A stretch of DNA of 64,000 nucleotides, taken from the IMG/VR virus record IMGVR_UViG_3300037504_000888, positions 1 through 64,000 of that record, one strand, 5' to 3'. This DNA is from a virus. The translations under genes and the position numbers were made by a program. Shown one piece after another: positions 5,127-56,012 of this stretch. The notes beneath the pieces are model-generated. The model was not told the origin of the DNA, ran no database searches, and saw only the letters and a list, made by a program, of their open reading frames with translations. Each line of letters begins with the position of its first letter. The first letter of the stretch is position 1.

Positions 5127-5658
5127 GGTGCTCCTTGAAGGCTTCGAGCCCTACTTCCCAGGCATTCTTGCTTCGGCCGTACTCTTGCCGATGCTTGTTC
5201 CTGCGGAGGGCGTACAACACGGTGAACGCCTTGGCTTTCTTCTCGCTCATCTTGCACTCGTCGATGAGGGCTTGAGCGCGCTCTTTGGCGTTCTCGAGCA
5301 ATGTATTCTTCGCGCTCTTCGCATCTGCGAGACAATCAGACATGTGGAGGTAGGGCGTCATGAACCCGCTCTGCCAGACGCATTCCAGGGCCCAAAACGG
5401 GTAGTAGCAGCCGTAGCCATTGAGGTGACTGGCAGGCGAGTTCTTACCGGGCACGCCCAACGTCTCGAGCAGGCGGCTGAGGCCGTCGTTGTGGTACAAA
5501 CCACCGTAATCCCTCTCTACTTCTTGAAGTACTGCGCGCTTTATCCTGCAGTGCTTGTTCGTATCCTGGTGCCAGGCCAGACCACGGCTACCGGCAACGA
5601 AGGCCCCGCAGTGCGGGCAAAACATCTTCTGACTGGAGGTGGAGGCTATCTCGGTCAT
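5113..5658 (-). CDS. C2HC Zn-finger paralogue family protein
   Basis: CPHC..GLAWHQ..C. Confidence 0.7.
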   Translation of the reverse strand: MTEIASTSSQKMFCPHCGAFVAGSRGLAWHQDTNKHCRIKRAVLQEVERDYGGLYHNDGLSRLLETLGVPGKNSPASHLNGYGCYYPFWALECVWQSGFMTPYLHMSDCLADAKSAKNTLLENAKERAQALIDECKMSEKKAKAFTVLYALRRNKHRQEYGRSKNAWEVGLEAFKEHHGIL

Positions 5659-5721: not shown

Positions 5722-6153
5722 ATGACATACGATAGAACAACACGTCCGGCGTCCATGCAGAAGCGCCGGGAGATTCGTCAGCGTATGCTCGAGCGCGGGT
5801 GGTTTCCCGTACCCAGTGACATGCCGCGCGACGCTCTGCTACGCATTCCAGTCAAGTGGGCTCCCAACTTCGACGATGAAGACCGAGTTGATTGCAACTG
5901 GACCGAGATGTGGTGCATAGCCCTCTGGGCGAAGCTGTGTGCTTCAGGCAAGGGTACGATGAAGCGCTACGCGCTCGAGCTGAAGAGGCACAAGCAGCAG
6001 CCCAGGTTGAAACGCGCCATTTTGATTACTGCGAAGATTTCCGCGGAAAGAAACCCCGAAGCCGACCTGGCCATCACCCGGTCCATCGAGCTTCTTGACG
6101 CCCCCTGGGCCGTCACGCTACAACTTGAACGGTCCTCTGGAACTCTGAAGTAG
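5722..6153 (+). CDS. Paralogue family protein lacking the Zn finger
   Basis: WTEMWCIALW and RLKRAIL segments match the neighbouring paralogues; GGCATAAC upstream. Confidence 0.65.
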   Translation: MTYDRTTRPASMQKRREIRQRMLERGWFPVPSDMPRDALLRIPVKWAPNFDDEDRVDCNWTEMWCIALWAKLCASGKGTMKRYALELKRHKQQPRLKRAILITAKISAERNPEADLAITRSIELLDAPWAVTLQLERSSGTLK

Positions 6154-6313
6154 CACTCTTGGTGGTGAGAGCCCTTCGGGGCTGGGTGAAGGCGGCAGCC
6201 AAGGTCGCCAGGGATGGCCATCCCTAACCCTCAGACCGCAGCGCAGCGCGCCCCCTGGGCCAGACGCAGTGCGCGCGAGAAGACGAACCTGCTACAACGA
6301 GTTCCAGGGGACT
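6131..6313 (+). ncRNA. Candidate structured ncRNA, about 183 nt, family unassigned
   Basis: 15-bp closing stem 6131-6145/6299-6313 with G-U pairs, plus GTAGCA/TGCTAC; internal UUCG hairpin; TTGACG-18-TACAAC promoter immediately upstream. Confidence 0.6.
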
Positions 6314-6328
6314 CCTATAGAGGGAAGT

Positions 6329-6883
6329 ATGCAGTACGAAGCAAACATCGCCCGTGCTTTCTTCACCATGGCCTCCGTGGCGTTCATTACGGTGGTCGCC
6401 ACCAACTGCCGGTGCACCTCCGAGTGCCCCCCATGCCCCTCATGCCCGAGCGTTTCTGCTAGCCCCAACCCCTCGGTCGATCCACCGAGCACTGACCCTC
6501 CTGAAGCCGAGGTGCTGAAGCAGCTCCCCGAGCAGGACCTCCAGCTCCGCAGCATGTTCGGCACGAGTGCCGAGCTCCTGTCGAAGAAGAACGCCGAGAA
6601 CTGGACGCTGCCGTACCCCCACCAGGTTCGGATCTTCCGCGAGGACAACTCGTGGATTGAGGACTGTGGTTTCTTCCCCACCCTCCAAGGGGATGGGTGG
6701 CGAACCGCGTACTGCCTCATCGAGGACAACCAGCGCGTGGCGCACAAGCTCTACATCCGAGTGCGGAAGAGTAGCAGGGGCGAGCCCATCTACGACTTCA
6801 AAGTAGTGGGCCCCGAAGGCGCACGACTGGACACCAGCTTCGTCGAGCATGGGCAAGAAACTTCCGCGGGCGGAATGCCCTAA
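6329..6883 (+). CDS. Secreted or membrane-anchored protein
   Basis: N-terminal hydrophobic segment followed by a Cys/Pro-rich linker. Confidence 0.65.
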   Translation: MQYEANIARAFFTMASVAFITVVATNCRCTSECPPCPSCPSVSASPNPSVDPPSTDPPEAEVLKQLPEQDLQLRSMFGTSAELLSKKNAENWTLPYPHQVRIFREDNSWIEDCGFFPTLQGDGWRTAYCLIEDNQRVAHKLYIRVRKSSRGEPIYDFKVVGPEGARLDTSFVEHGQETSAGGMP

Positions 6884-7933: not shown

Positions 7934-8162
7934 GCTCTACGAGGCCGAGCGCCTCACCGAAGAGTGGAAGAAGCAGTACGTCGACGACGACCGCGGGATG
8001 AAAGCGCTCGAGGTCGTCGACATGATGCGGCGGGGGCGCAGTGAGCCCCTGCCGGTGGACCACGTGACGCTTCACATCGGTGTGGACCATGCTGTAGTTT
8101 CAGAAAGTTCGACGGCCACCATAGCCGTCCCTCGAAAGGGCAACGATGCATCGGAATCATGA
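7920..8162 (+). CDS. Hypothetical protein
   Basis: Start MNQREL; operon context. Confidence 0.55.
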   Translation: MNQRELYEAERLTEEWKKQYVDDDRGMKALEVVDMMRRGRSEPLPVDHVTLHIGVDHAVVSESSTATIAVPRKGNDASES

Positions 8163-8436
8163 TCCCCAGCTTTGGATGGAGTCTGTCCCCAGGACCCCCA
8201 CAGCTACCCCTGAGAAGCCCCCGACCACCCTTTGGGACCCGGGGGCTTTGCTTTGTGCCGTGGTCGACGGCAGGCGCGTCTACGGCAAGGTCGCGTGTGT
8301 TGACCCGCACGTCGACTACGTGGTGGTTCGCTCCTACAACTTCAACGGGCACGAGCCCGTCAAGAGCACCTGGGCGGGTACCAGGGACCAGTTCCAGGCG
8401 ATGTGGATGTTCGCACGCCTCGAAGGCGCCGCTTGA
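8146..8436 (+). CDS. Hypothetical protein
   Basis: Operon context; codon usage. Confidence 0.55.
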   Translation: MHRNHDPQLWMESVPRTPTATPEKPPTTLWDPGALLCAVVDGRRVYGKVACVDPHVDYVVVRSYNFNGHEPVKSTWAGTRDQFQAMWMFARLEGAA

Positions 8437-8521: not shown

Positions 8522-8888
8522 GGGCCTGACTGGTTTCGACGTGGAGGAATGGAAGTAGCTGCGAGCAGGCGGGGCTCACGCCGCCTTGACCCATGTGAGC
8601 AAACGGCAGTTGCCAACGACAACGCCAACCAGGCCGCGGCGTAAGACCCGCGACCCACCCCTAGCGAGGAGCTCGAGTAGCGACGGGGTGCCAGTACACG
8701 AGCTGAGCCTGCGCGGCGTGTCTCCGATGATGCAGGCGAGCTTACGGAGAGGCTGACTTCTCGGAAAGACGGGATGGTGGAGGCGGCACACCCCCAGTCG
8801 CCAATGACGCCGGGAAAGACCGGCTACGCTCGTGAACGAAGCTACTGACTGAACTCTGCGGACCGGAGTTCGATTCTCCGCAGGTCCA
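8522..8888 (+). ncRNA. ssrA: Transfer-messenger RNA (tmRNA)
   Basis: 5' GGGCCTGACTGGTTTCGAC; 3' T-arm CGGAG-TTCGATT-CTCCG then CAGGTCC-A-CC; G3-U70 alanine identity pair; tag ORF 8612-8644 ANDNANQAAA*. Confidence 0.96.
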
Positions 8889-8890
8889 CC

Positions 8891-9280
8891 TCTACTTTCT
8901 CAGCTCCCCCGTTGTCACATTCGGGGCAGGAAAAGTTGGACTGAGCATGCTGAGCTCTGCGAAGTCCCCTGGTCACGGGAGGTTGCAACGCCCGCGCGAC
9001 TCGGTGCGTGGTATCCGTGTCACCGTCCTTCTCGGTCTCTCGGATGCTCGAGCAGGCCCTGGGTGAAAACCGAGGGCACCACTCGAGTAGCCCGGTCTTC
9101 TGGGATGGGCGGAAGTCGCGTCTGAACGTCTCAGCCTCGGGCGGCAAGGCCCGGGGCGAGTAGGTAACCCTGAGAGAGGCTTGCCCCTCTTGATGGGAGC
9201 GAAGTTCGAGTCCTCGCCGTTCAGGCCGAAGCAGAGGCGGGGAACGTCCCGCCATCAAGGCCCTCGCCTCTGCTTCTACA
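8891..9280 (+). ncRNA. Candidate large structured RNA with a tRNA-like domain and two pseudoknots, family unassigned
   Basis: Nested helices, GAAA tetraloop, acceptor-like stem with TTCGAGT T-loop, kissing loops GGCAAG/CTTGCC, pairing CTTGATGG/CCATCAAG, 15-bp terminal hairpin. Confidence 0.65.
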
Positions 9281-9561
9281 TCCTCGGCGAGACCGACCAC
9301 AACGTCGGCCTCGACCAACTCCAGGCGTTCACGGACGCCTGGCTCGGGTACTACGGCCAGTCCGACGAAGAAGAAGTAGAGTCGGTGCGACGACACCTCC
9401 AGGACCTACTTGCCCGAGCCCACCGCGATGGCGGTGGCGAGATCGCTCCCCTAGAAGAAGAAGCTGGGGGAGATACTGCACCACCTGGGACTGATAGTAG
9501 TAGGACCACCCCTACTACCCGGACGGATGGTGACAGTGCCTTCGCCTCTGCTTCTACTTAG
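9193..9561 (+). CDS. Hypothetical protein whose start lies inside the structured RNA
   Basis: The part after about 9275 has typical codon usage and looks helical; in-frame starts are TTG 9181/9190 and ATG 9193. Confidence 0.4.
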   Translation: MGAKFESSPFRPKQRRGTSRHQGPRLCFYILGETDHNVGLDQLQAFTDAWLGYYGQSDEEEVESVRRHLQDLLARAHRDGGGEIAPLEEEAGGDTAPPGTDSSRTTPTTRTDGDSAFASAST

Positions 9562-19408: not shown

Positions 19409-19703
19409 CCTCGCCTCCCCTTGCCAGCGCTTCCCGCAACCGCGCATTTTCGGCCGCAACCCGATGGGTCCCCTCAAAACGCTTTTGCAGCCGCGCCAAC
19501 TCTTCAGCTTGCCACTTTCGTTTGGCGCCGTTGGCTGCCGCCTCGTTCTTGAGGCGGACGATTGCGACCCGCGCCTCGTCAAGCTCACGCTCCAGCTCGG
19601 CAACGCGGTCGGCAAGCTCTTCAACGTCCACTTCGTCTCGAAGGGTGGCGCGAATATTCTCGCTCAGCTTGCGGTCAGTAATCGCTTGTCTCTTCGACTT
19701 CAT
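19401..19703 (-). CDS. Coiled-coil hypothetical protein
   Basis: ATGA coupling. Confidence 0.6.
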   Translation of the reverse strand: MKSKRQAITDRKLSENIRATLRDEVDVEELADRVAELERELDEARVAIVRLKNEAAANGAKRKWQAEELARLQKRFEGTHRVAAENARLREALARGGEDD

Positions 19704-55230: not shown

Positions 55231-56012
55231 CCCTGTTGTCCCCCCAAGGACTGCAGGAACTGCTCGAGCTCGCCCCCGTTGAGAGCCGACGCGAGCTCGG
55301 TGGTGAGGTCTCCGCGTTGACGGTGCATCGCAGCTTCGACGAACGTCACGAGTAGGAGCAGCGTGGTGCCGGTAATCTGATTGCTGACAGCAGCCTGGTT
55401 CTTGAGTTCGGTGAGTGCTGCTACGAGCTGGCCCTGCGACTGCGTGAGGGCCTGGATGCTCTGAGAGATCTTCTGCTGGTTGCTGATGATGGTGGCCAGC
55501 GGGTCAGGGTCGTTGGAGAACGTCGGCTGCCGGACGTCAGCTGCCGGGGCAGGAGGAGTGGCAGCCGGGGCGGCAGGAGCAGCAGGAGGGGCGGCAGGGG
55601 CGGCAGGAGCGGCCGGGGCGGCCTGTTGGGGAATCCCGACTGCTCCGGGCATGGAGATGGCAGGAGCGGCCGCCGGGGCGGCAGGAGCTGATGGACCCGG
55701 CATGGACATCTGCTGTGAGGGCATCTGTGGGGCTCCGCTTGGCATGGCCGGCTGCTGTGGGGCCGGCTGCTGTGGGGCTGATGCTGCCTGGGCCGGAGCA
55801 ACACCCTGACCGGCATCCTTGGCCTGGAGCACGGCGAGCAGGCGCTCTGCTTGCTGATCGGGAGGAGCGCTCGAATAGGCGATCTTGTCGTTATGATCGG
55901 CGAAGGCGTTCTCCTGGTTCATGATCCTGAAGCGGAGGCTCGGGCGGAGCTGTTCTTGGATGTAGTTGAGGTCCCGGGGGATGGTGTCGGCGTTGATGGT
56001 TCCTACGCTCAT
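55227..56012 (-). CDS. Pro/Ala/Gln-rich protein with C-terminal coiled coil
   Basis: ATGA-coupled start MSVGTI; low-complexity linker. Confidence 0.7.
   Translation of the reverse strand: MSVGTINADTIPRDLNYIQEQLRPSLRFRIMNQENAFADHNDKIAYSSAPPDQQAERLLAVLQAKDAGQGVAPAQAASAPQQPAPQQPAMPSGAPQMPSQQMSMPGPSAPAAPAAAPAISMPGAVGIPQQAAPAAPAAPAAPPAAPAAPAATPPAPAADVRQPTFSNDPDPLATIISNQQKISQSIQALTQSQGQLVAALTELKNQAAVSNQITGTTLLLLVTFVEAAMHRQRGDLTTELASALNGGELEQFLQSLGGQQG

What the first reader, a model, noticed from the sequence alone, without database searches (positions are those of the whole stretch)
6131..6313. About 183-nt RNA with a long closing stem that repeats parts of its own promoter
Seen: GGTCCTCTGGAACTC (6131-6145) pairs with GAGTTCCAGGGGACT (6299-6313) using G-U pairs, extended by GTAGCA/TGCTAC. 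The 5' end starts just after the -10 box. Internal hairpins are AGCCC-TTCG-GGGCT and AGGGATGGCCATCCCT. The RNA contains CGCCCCCTGGGCC (6249-6261) and GCTACAAC (6291-6298), both also present in its promoter (6099-6111, 6117-6124). Known: size and closing stem resemble 6S RNA, but the interior looks branched. Inference: a promoter mimic, a guide-like RNA or a new class.
Basis: partly seen in the sequence, partly recalled or inferred. Interest (0 to 1): 0.7.

Follow-up and report, generated by a model that had tools for sequence, protein, structure and literature searches.

The report
Conserved structured RNA between two phage genes
The 175-base gap between two small genes of an uncultivated tidal-flat phage holds a folded RNA element that matches no described RNA family, including 6S RNA, and whose core is kept in distant relatives, though its function is still unknown.

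Summary
This includes the 15-bp closing stem, whose two G-U pairs work only on the + strand.

The stem alone is weak evidence. Stems of this quality occur 3 times on the + strand, against 1.45 expected by chance. The "-10 box" TACAAC is not canonical.

The case rests on conservation. No relative's DNA could be fetched, but some relatives' neighbouring ORFs run into the element, so their proteins partly report its sequence:
- One such extension matches window 6165-6230 with score 76, against 25 +/- 4 for shuffles.
- Relatives read the element in two different frames, and the window has stops in two of the three frames, so the conservation is non-coding.
- Two base pairs changed on both sides and still pair. 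Of 21 testable pairs, none is definitely broken.
- The CTACAAC motif and the 5' arm are kept at nucleotide level inside the upstream gene's end.

Rfam gives no hit, 6S included. The fold is branched, and no recombinase or reverse transcriptase lies nearby.

The 13-nt promoter/RNA repeat is not kept in any relative at the promoter copy.

Verdict: a new structured RNA family. It is probably made as the leader of the downstream lipoprotein gene, since no terminator follows it, and may be cut out at its long stem. Expression is untested.

The parts
5722..6153 (+). Upstream ORF (143 aa). Its last about 20 codons carry the promoter-like motif and the 5' arm of the RNA.
   Evidence: GC3 periodicity. 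Family of about 21 cluster representatives, all metagenomic. AlphaFold2 mean pLDDT 89.7 with no fold match. No Pfam or PHROG hit.
6095..6100 (+). -35-like TTGACG, which is the codons for Leu-Asp
   Evidence: Sequence. Leu-Asp is invariant in the 12-sequence sub-alignment A4. This cannot be separated from constraint on the protein itself.
6099..6111 (+). 13-nt repeat, copy 1 (CGCCCCCTGGGCC). It lies in the promoter spacer, inside the imperfect palindrome TGACGCCC-CCT-GGGCCGTCA.
   Evidence: No relative keeps it at this place: P0004 D-ADWGH-T, P0005 D-PKAQL-E, P0006 D-PEYRE-E.
6117..6124 (+). GCTACAAC copy 1, holding the -10-like TACAAC (6119-6124), 18 nt after the -35-like hexamer
   Evidence: In relatives the residue after Leu-Gln is L, Q, R, H or P. 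These are exactly the five amino acids with CNN codons, so the nucleotide C is conserved rather than the amino acid.
6131..6145 (+). P1, 5' arm of the closing stem
   Evidence: probability 0.97 or more. Relatives read S-[PS]-[EG]-[TRA] here, always 3 codons after Leu-Gln.
6146..6149 (+). 5' side of the internal loop (UGAA). Its length varies among relatives.
   Evidence: P0005 and P0011 lack 4 nt here and P0006 lacks 3 nt, while the flanking strands are kept (inference from reading frames).
6150..6155 (+). P1b 5' strand (GUAGCA)
   Evidence: Probability 0.95. Read as Ser-Ser-Thr or Ser-Ser-Asn (AGY AGY AC/AA) in P0005 and P0011, which is consistent with conservation.
6170..6183 (+). H2 hairpin: AGCCC, loop UUCG, GGGCU
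   Evidence: Probability 0.97. Pair 6172-6181 is C-G here and G-C in P0041's relative. The codons CC./UC./GG. (Pro-Ser-Gly) are kept in P0005 and P0011. P0010 reads Pro-Lys-Gly, so its loop is xAAx.
6184..6230 (+). P3 (GGGU with ACCC), enclosing H3 (6191-6209, loop AGCCAAG) and H4 (6210-6225, loop GGCC). This is the most conserved core.
   Evidence: In P0041's relative, H3 pair 6192-6208 changes from G-C to A-U and pair 6195-6205 from G-U to A-U. No definite break among the 21 assessable pairs of H2, P3, H3 and H4.
6237..6277 (+). H5, an imperfect long hairpin. Its tip (6249-6261) is copy 2 of the 13-nt repeat, folded as GCCC-CCU-GGGC.
   Evidence: probabilities 0.54-0.96. No detectable similarity to P0041's extension here. 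The weak P0005 alignment puts a 9-nt gap at the repeat.
6290..6298 (+). P1b 3' strand (UGCUAC) followed by AAC. It overlaps GCUACAAC copy 2 (6291-6298).
6299..6313 (+). P1, 3' arm of the closing stem
   Evidence: Not covered by any relative's ORF, so it is untested by comparison.
6320..6331 (+). Shine-Dalgarno GAGGGAAG and the AUG (6329) of the downstream gene. Predicted to pair with 6353-6364.
   Evidence: Sequence. 12-bp helix with probability 0.95 in the extended fold. No terminator between 6313 and the gene.
6329..6883 (+). Downstream ORF (184 aa): signal peptide or lipoprotein-like N-terminus, Pro/Ser-rich linker, conserved C-terminal domain
   Evidence: GC3 periodicity. Homologues P0002 and P0032-P0041. 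Found on the same contigs as the upstream family.

Best explanation
This is a conserved, independently folding RNA domain of an undescribed family. It sits between a small ORFan gene and a lipoprotein-like gene in an uncultivated phage from a tidal flat.

Shown: the sequence folds into a 15-bp plus 6-bp closing helix around a five-hairpin junction. The 5' two-thirds (P1 5' arm, P1b 5' strand, H2, P3, H3, H4) is kept at nucleotide level in relatives, without a conserved reading frame and with pair-preserving changes.

Inferred: it is transcribed on the + strand. Transcription probably starts near G6131, from a promoter-like TTGAC-N18-TACAAC embedded in the upstream gene's last codons. With no terminator, it continues into the lipoprotein gene.

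The element would therefore be made as the 5' leader of that mRNA. I think it most likely works as a cis-acting platform that binds a protein or a ligand and sets the stability or translation of the downstream message. The long coaxial closing helix (about 21 bp with an internal loop) insulates the domain. It is also a plausible RNase III site, which could release the domain as a stable RNA.
For: Fold: MFE -88 kcal/mol, z = -3.4; helix probabilities 0.85-0.98; stable to added flanks.

Non-coding: no GC3 periodicity in 6160-6330, while both flanking ORFs have it.

Conservation:
- P0041, a homologue of the downstream gene (38% identity), carries a 60-aa N-terminal read-through. It matches the window's frame from 6165 with score 76, against 24.9 +/- 4.2 for shuffles, 0 of 3000.
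- The C-terminal read-throughs of P0005 and P0011 match 6149-6205 in another frame: P0005 scores 49 against 31.8 +/- 5.2, p about 0.008. Identity at determinable nucleotides is 0.67 and 0.57, about that of codon positions 1 and 2 in the gene body.
- The window has stops in two of the three frames, so no ORF is conserved.

Structure: pairs 6172-6181 (C-G to G-C) and 6192-6208 (G-C to A-U) changed on both sides. Pair 6195-6205 changed from G-U to A-U. None of 21 assessable pairs is definitely broken.

Promoter and 5' end: the residue after Leu-Gln is always one with a CNN codon, in five different amino acids. S-[PS]-[EG]-[TRA] lies at a fixed distance.

Leader reading: no terminator after 6313, and the Shine-Dalgarno sequence starts at 6320.

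Strand: three G-U pairs work only on the + strand, and both neighbouring genes are on the + strand.

Module: the two gene families share contigs in four lineages.
Against: - No DNA of any relative could be read. All comparative evidence comes from back-translated read-through ORFs, with third codon positions unknown.
- Only two compensatory pairs are definite, both from one relative. Together with the G-U to A-U change their joint chance probability is about 0.06.
By itself it is not rarer than chance.
- The 3' third (H5, linker, 3' arm) shows no detectable conservation.
- TACAAC lacks the conserved final T of a -10 box, and the promoter scan reports nothing.
- No expression data exist.
- A 15+6-bp closing helix is far more stable than the P1 of known riboswitches, which argues against a simple switch.
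- The weak H1 hairpin has a definite break in P0005.
Confidence: 0.6

Rival explanations
1. It is a stable trans-acting phage RNA. RNase III cuts in the closing helix release it from the operon transcript, and it acts elsewhere, for example as the RNA part of a ribonucleoprotein. It would belong with the tmRNA and the tRNA-like stretch 2-3 kb downstream. It would not be a leader.
For: The closing helix (15 bp, a 4x3 internal loop, then 6 bp) has the size and form of the RNase III processing stalks that flank rRNAs and T7 early mRNAs (established knowledge). The loop sequences AGCCAAG and GGCC are conserved, not only the stems. The phage carries other stable RNAs nearby, including a tmRNA at 100.6 bits.
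Against: There is no terminator and no evidence of processing. The element sits in the same place next to the same two genes in relatives, which fits a local role. No RNA data exist.
Confidence: 0.22
2. It is a DNA-level control region. The 20-bp imperfect palindrome over the -35 and spacer, together with its 13-bp copy 150 bp downstream, would be paired operators for a phage repressor that loops the DNA. The RNA fold would then be incidental.
For: The exact 13-bp repeat is non-random: 0.5 such repeats are expected per contig. Copy 1 lies in a palindrome that overlaps the -35-like hexamer.
Against: No relative keeps the repeat at the promoter copy, whereas the hairpin core is conserved with pair-preserving changes. 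The G-U pairs are specific to the + strand. The contig holds 11 local repeats of this length, so small duplications are common here.
Confidence: 0.08
3. It is a 6S-like promoter mimic. The RNA would bind RNA polymerase holoenzyme by imitating the open form of its own promoter.
For: The length of about 183 nt and the long closing stem resemble 6S RNA. The RNA contains the promoter's spacer 13-mer and the -10-like 8-mer.
Against: No 6S (RF00013) hit at E up to 10, even in a 226-nt search. The predicted fold is a branched five-hairpin junction with no large central bubble, and two of its inner hairpins have comparative support. In the fold the 8-mer is mostly base-paired and the 13-mer forms a hairpin tip, so neither forms an open bubble. 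The 13-mer is specific to this lineage.
Confidence: 0.04
4. It is a guide-type RNA of a mobile element or nuclease, such as an IS110 bridge RNA, an omega RNA or a retron msr-msd. The repeats of flanking DNA would be guide or donor segments.
For: The size is close to that of bridge RNAs. The RNA shares 13-nt and 8-nt segments with DNA just upstream.
Against: None of the ten neighbouring ORFs hits Pfam significantly or PHROGs at all. The flanking proteins are a 143-aa ORFan with no detected fold match and a lipoprotein-like protein. There is no second copy of the element in the 103-kb contig. The shared segments have the same sense as the DNA and are not conserved in relatives.
Confidence: 0.02
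5. It is a chance fold in a GC-rich spacer, or an unrecognised small protein gene, with no RNA function.
For: The stem alone is within chance expectation. GC-rich sequence folds well on both strands. Frame 6149 is open into the downstream gene, and a minus-strand ORF (5967-6221) overlaps the region.
Against: Conservation crosses reading frames at z of about 12. The window has stops in two of the three frames. There is no GC3 periodicity. Both-sided pair changes preserve pairing.
Confidence: 0.04

Closest known systems
6S RNA (Rfam RF00013)
   Same: Length of about 180 nt, with the 5' and 3' ends joined in a long closing helix.
   Different: No covariance-model hit. The interior is branched with five hairpins instead of a central bubble between two long helices. 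There is no terminator, and the element lies directly ahead of a gene's ribosome-binding site.
RNase III processing stalks (rRNA operons, T7 early intergenic sites)
   Same: A helix of about 21 bp with an internal loop, formed by sequences that flank a folded RNA, lying between co-transcribed genes.
   Different: Cleavage is not shown. The enclosed RNA is not rRNA or tRNA, and it has its own conserved promoter-like element.
Structured 5' leaders: riboswitch aptamers closed by P1, and protein-binding leaders such as those of ribosomal-protein operons
   Same: A multi-helix junction closed by a P1 helix, directly upstream of the Shine-Dalgarno sequence of the regulated gene, with conserved loops.
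   Different: The closing helix is far longer and more stable than a switching P1. No known aptamer matches in Rfam. The regulated gene is a phage lipoprotein, not a metabolic or ribosomal gene.
Orphan structured RNAs of phages and prophages (GOLLD, ROOL, HEARO and the motif collections in Rfam)
   Same: A conserved fold of unknown function, carried by phage genomes that also encode tRNA or tmRNA.
   Different: It is much smaller than GOLLD or ROOL, matches no model, and is tied to one particular gene pair.
IS110/IS1111 bridge RNA
   Same: Size of about 180 nt, and it contains short segments identical to nearby DNA.
   Different: There is no recombinase gene, no second copy and no element ends. 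The shared segments are not conserved.

Membership tests
6S RNA (RF00013) | Match to the family covariance model | tested here: not met
   No hit at the gathering score on the window, nor at E up to 10 on 601-nt and 226-nt stretches.
6S RNA (RF00013) | Rod-like fold: closing stem, large central bubble, terminal stem | tested here: not met
   The MFE and centroid structures are a multibranch junction with five hairpins. Hairpins H2 and H3 have compensatory support.
6S RNA (RF00013) | Binds RNA polymerase holoenzyme and templates product RNA | not testable with these tools
   Needs a binding assay and an in vitro transcription assay.
IS110-type bridge RNA | Encoded next to a DEDD/serine IS110 recombinase, within element ends | tested here: not met
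   Ten neighbouring ORFs give no significant Pfam hit and no PHROG hit. There is no second copy in the contig.
Retron msr-msd | Adjacent reverse transcriptase gene | tested here: not met
   No reverse transcriptase domain in the ten tested ORFs between 3129 and 10539.
Y RNA / YrlA, SRP RNA, RNase P RNA, tmRNA and other stable RNAs in Rfam | Match to the family covariance model | tested here: not met
   Searches list only two chance-level hits on the minus strand (HTT-AS1_3 and RsmV). The tmRNA model hits only 8522-8891.
Sigma-70-type promoter | -35 TTGACA and -10 TATAAT with a 16-18 nt spacer, with A at position 2 and T at position 6 of the -10 | tested here: inconclusive
   TTGACG, an 18-nt spacer and TACAAC are present, but position 6 is C. 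The scan reports no site. The motif is conserved at nucleotide level in relatives. The host and its promoter rules are unknown.
Structured non-coding RNA (general) | Conservation without a reading frame, plus pair-preserving substitutions | tested here: met
   Weakness: one relative supplies both two-sided changes, and third codon positions are unknown.
RNase III processing stalk | About two turns of double-stranded RNA formed by the flanks of the excised RNA, and cleavage by RNase III | tested here: inconclusive
   The geometry fits (15 bp + loop + 6 bp). Cleavage cannot be tested here.

The most novel reading that the evidence does not exclude
The element founds a new class of phage RNA that feeds back on its own promoter.

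The tip of hairpin H5 carries the same 13 nt (GCCC-CCU-GGGC hairpin) as the palindrome over the -35 and spacer of the promoter that makes it. RNA and promoter would then compete for one factor, either a phage protein such as the adjacent ORFan with no detected fold match, or RNA polymerase itself. As the RNA accumulates, it would titrate that factor and reset transcription of the lipoprotein operon.

The spacer varies among relatives, yet in this phage the RNA copy is identical to it. That would then reflect co-evolution of the decoy and its site.
Probability: 0.08. Interest if true: 0.75.

Novelty: new variant of a known kind. Interest (0 to 1): 0.5.

Why it matters
Structured RNAs carried by phages are few, and most have no known function. 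This one is tied to a fixed three-part module: a small protein with no detected fold match, the RNA, and a lipoprotein. The module recurs in uncultivated phages from several metagenome sources.

The module offers a concrete handle for study. The RNA can be tested as a regulator of a likely surface-acting or exclusion protein, or as a partner of the neighbouring protein.

It also shows that a promoter-like motif and the start of an RNA can be read out of the amino-acid pattern of an overlapping gene. The sign is a residue position that accepts only the five amino acids with CNN codons.

If the closing stem proves to be a processing site, the element would add a case of a phage excising a stable RNA from an mRNA.

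Tried and rejected
DNA of relatives: none could be obtained.
- Scans of viral contigs found no relative. These used the flanking proteins, alignments A1, A2 and A5, P0036, a large virion protein and two degenerate DNA patterns. The four pattern hits were chance.
- Both metagenome-contig scans and both genome-contig scans were empty. The A2 scan narrowly missed the JGI-held P0007, which differs within both search peptides.
- The INPHARED phage collection gave no match by DNA or by six protein queries.
- The genome search cannot centre on a taxon name.

Expression: no RNA holder is listed for this DNA. The two DNA runs are the probable source sample and a second tidal-flat sample with the identical sequence at low depth, so there was no variation to use.

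Protein function:
- Pfam and PHROGs were empty for ten neighbouring ORFs.
- The AlphaFold2 model of the upstream protein had no convincing match in PDB or BFVD (best Foldseek E-values 0.34 and 0.087) or by VIA-align (best Z 5.0).
- The protein atlas gave only sub-threshold rows.

Considered and dropped:
- Intron: removing 6125-6298 keeps the upstream frame but does not join the GC3-supported downstream frame.
- Transposon ends with a target duplication: the second GCTACAAC lies inside the right arm, not outside it.
- Antisense target at 19523-19543: it is a same-sense Ala-rich coding stretch, so chance.
- SRP-like motif GCAGCCAAGG: a recollection only, with no model hit.
- General phage promoter: CTACAAC is not enriched between genes, and only five TTGAC-N16-18-TAnnn[TC] sites exist.
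- The global degenerate-nucleotide alignment of P0005's whole tail was unreliable beyond about 6205.
- Earlier-findings look-ups by relatives and by sequence returned nothing.

Full report
**Context.** The window is the first 64 kb of a 103-kb IMG/VR virus record (about 60% G+C, CheckV 55% complete). Its DNA is held by tidal-flat metagenome runs. The element lies in a run of + strand genes that starts at 5722, after two minus-strand genes that end at 5658. A phage tmRNA lies 2.2 kb downstream at 8522-8891, scoring 100.6 bits with the tag ANDNANQAAA. Huge phages are known to carry tmRNAs (PMC7162821, listed; the statement is from my own knowledge of that paper).

**The observation.**
- The closing stem is 15 consecutive pairs. 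Two are G-U pairs that would be A-C mismatches on the other strand.
- After a 4x3 internal loop, the stem continues as GUAGCA/UGCUAC.
- Inside is a junction with five hairpins:
  - a weak 3-bp hairpin (H1)
  - H2 (AGCCC, loop UUCG, GGGCU)
  - helix P3 (GGGU/ACCC), which encloses H3 (6 bp, loop AGCCAAG) and H4 (6 bp, loop GGCC)
  - a long imperfect hairpin H5, whose tip is the second copy of the 13-mer
- Helix probabilities are 0.85-0.98, and the fold survives added flanks.
- The MFE z-score is -3.4 on the + strand and -2.8 on the minus strand.

Three cautions apply.
- Stems of this quality and span occur 3 times on the + strand, against 1.45 expected. The stem alone proves nothing.
- The "-10" TACAAC ends in C, and the promoter scan lists no site.
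- CTACAAC is a common word, with 37 copies. The contig has 11 exact local repeats of 13 nt or more, against 0.5 expected. The 13-mer repeat is therefore non-random but of a common kind.

**Coding status.**
- ORF 5722-6153 and ORF 6329-6883 show the GC3 periodicity of real genes. The stretch 6160-6330 shows none.
- The 5' arm and the promoter-like motif lie in the last 20 codons of the upstream gene.
- The 3' arm ends 6 nt before the Shine-Dalgarno sequence GAGGGAAG.
- No terminator follows the element.

**Known families.** Rfam gives nothing for this stretch at E up to 10, even when only 226 nt are searched. That covers 6S, SRP, Y RNA and RNase P. The ten neighbouring ORFs have no significant Pfam hit and no PHROG hit. 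No recombinase, nuclease or reverse transcriptase was therefore found that would go with a guide-type RNA.

**Relatives.** Protein searches did find relatives:
- about 21 cluster representatives of the upstream protein
- 11 homologues of the downstream protein

The two families share contigs in four lineages:
- the window itself
- P0005 and P0002, 68,280 nt
- P0021 and P0040, 61,071 nt
- P0026 and P0039, 2,312 nt

. The gene pair is therefore a conserved module.

**Reading the element through neighbours' ORFs.** In several relatives the gene caller's ORF runs into the spacer. The protein then reports two of every three nucleotides of that relative's element.

1. P0041 (38% identical in the downstream protein) has a 60-aa N-terminal extension. 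Its stretch GLRTWAKTTAKVVRDGHPEP matches ALRGWVKAAAKVARDGHP*P, the window's frame from 6171. The score is 76, against 24.9 +/- 4.2 for 3000 shuffles, none of which reaches it.
2. The C-terminal tails of P0005 and P0011 read the element in a different frame. SSTTGGAWPSGSATAGSLG and SSNLDDNSPSGSG compare with the window's SSTLGGESPSGLGEGGSQG from 6149. P0005 scores 49 against 31.8 +/- 5.2, p about 0.008. At determinable nucleotides the tails are 0.67 and 0.57 identical. That is about the level of codon positions 1 and 2 in the gene body, 0.72 and 0.57.
3. The window has stop codons in two of the three frames, and relatives stop at different places. What is conserved is nucleotide sequence, not a protein.

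**Structure test.** In P0041's relative, 21 predicted pairs of H2, P3, H3 and H4 can be assessed.
- None is definitely broken.
- Two changed on both sides and still pair: 6172-6181 (C-G to G-C) and 6192-6208 (G-C to A-U).
- One G-U pair became A-U (6195-6205).
- Three more changed on one side, with the partner undetermined but able to pair.
- P0005 also has G at 6172.
- P0010 and P0031 read Pro-Lys-Gly where the others read Pro-Ser-Gly. The H2 loop there is xAAx instead of xUCx, between unchanged CC and GG. This would fit a swap between tetraloop types, though the two outer loop bases are undetermined.

The joint chance of the three definite pair-keeping changes is about 0.06. This is suggestive, not proof. 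The weak hairpin H1 has a definite break in P0005. The 3' third (H5, linker, 3' arm) shows no detectable similarity to P0041's extension. No ORF covers the 3' arm, so the closing stem itself remains untested by comparison.

**The 5' end and the promoter-like motif.** Eleven family members end with LD-x5-[E/T/K]-LQ-[L/Q/R/H/P]-x2-S-[P/S]-[E/G]-[T/R/A].
- LD corresponds to TTGAC.
- LQ plus the next base corresponds to CTACAAC.
- The residue after LQ takes exactly the five amino acids that have CNN codons, and no other. This marks conservation of the nucleotide C rather than of a residue.
- S-P-E-T is the 5' arm. The perfect complement of the window's 3' arm would encode S-P-G-T. The window's U6136-G6308 wobble is therefore a C-to-U change that kept pairing.
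- The linker between the 5' arm and GUAGCA varies by 0-4 nt among relatives. That is expected for an internal loop.
- The geometry fits a start at the first base of the stem: the -35-like hexamer, 18 nt, TACAAC, then 6 nt to G6131 (the seventh base after TACAAC). The C at the last -10 position and the unknown host leave this inferred.

**The repeats.** The promoter copy of the 13-mer lies in a spacer that differs in every relative: D-APWAV-T here, D-ADWGH-T in P0004, D-PKAQL-E in P0005, D-PEYRE-E in P0006. The weak P0005 alignment places a 9-nt gap exactly at the RNA copy. The repeat is therefore specific to this lineage. A small local duplication is the simplest account. A decoy or feedback role cannot be excluded, and I give it as the novel case.

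**Mechanism.** With no terminator and the ribosome-binding site 7 nt beyond the stem, the element is most simply made as the 5' part of the lipoprotein gene's transcript.
- I favour a cis-acting domain that binds a protein or ligand, insulated by its closing helix (confidence 0.6 for the whole statement).
- The main rival is excision at that helix by RNase III, giving a stable RNA (0.22).
- The extended fold also pairs the Shine-Dalgarno sequence and AUG (6320-6331) with 6353-6364 (12 bp, probability 0.95). This gives a place where a leader could act.
- 6S-like mimicry (0.04) and guide RNA (0.02) fail their defining tests.
- A pure DNA operator pair (0.08) does not explain the conserved, pair-preserving hairpins.

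**Neighbours.**
- The upstream protein folds confidently (mean pLDDT 89.7), but no convincing fold relative was found.
- The downstream family has a signal or lipobox-like N-terminus, a Pro/Ser-rich linker and a conserved domain (W-IPYPYQ ... DCGFFP ... GDGWRTAYCL).
- From general knowledge, phage lipoproteins often act in superinfection exclusion or lysis. Nothing here tests that.

**Verdict.** The finding is real. It is a new family of structured RNA, but neither a 6S RNA nor a guide RNA. The evidence is indirect and expression is unknown. Interest is 0.5.

Noticed in passing
window 8522-8891: Phage-encoded tmRNA (Rfam 100.6 bits; ARAGORN tag peptide ANDNANQAAA), on the same strand and 2.2 kb downstream of the element.
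   Followed up: partly
window 8333-8348: CCTACAACTTCAACGG matches GCTACAACTTGAACGG (6117-6132) at 14 of 16 bases. It lies inside ORF 8146-8436, about 175 nt upstream of the tmRNA. No TTGAC lies at promoter distance. It may be chance from Tyr-Asn-Phe-Asn codons.
   Followed up: partly
window 6320-6331 with 6353-6364: A 12-bp helix (probability 0.95) pairs the Shine-Dalgarno sequence and start codon of ORF 6329 with codons 9-12 of the same gene. It is a possible translational brake.
   Followed up: no
window 5722-6153 (protein family P0004-P0026): The upstream ORFan belongs to a family known only from metagenomes. Its alpha/beta fold is predicted with confidence (pLDDT 89.7), but no convincing match turned up in PDB or BFVD. 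The source's gene call starts at Met12, but relatives support Met1 at 5722.
   Followed up: yes
window 6329-6883 (family P0002, P0032-P0041): The downstream protein is lipoprotein-like: a hydrophobic N-terminus ending in Cys, a Pro/Ser-rich linker, and a conserved domain with IPYPYQ, DCGFFP and GDGWRTAYCL. It shares contigs with the upstream family even in members only about 25% identical.
   Followed up: partly
window 9228-9554: A 15-bp stem (9228/9554) and an exact 13-nt direct repeat TCGCCTCTGCTTC (9264 and 9542) bracket the stretch after the tmRNA. Another note of this scan calls that stretch tRNA-like.
   Followed up: no
protein P0025 (NCBI MFZ1074864.1): A distant member of the upstream family is filed as a protein of a Minisyncoccia (candidate phyla radiation) metagenome-assembled genome, on a 75-kb contig. 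This is either a phage contig binned with that genome or a hint about the host.
   Followed up: no
window 19523-19543: A 19-of-21 match to hairpin H3 on the opposite strand. It lies in an Ala-rich coiled-coil coding stretch and has the same sense as that gene, so I judged it chance.
   Followed up: yes
window 55560-55770: A cluster of exact short direct repeats (GGGGCGGCAGGAG and related words) inside a minus-strand ORF, so the coding sequence there is repetitive.
   Followed up: no
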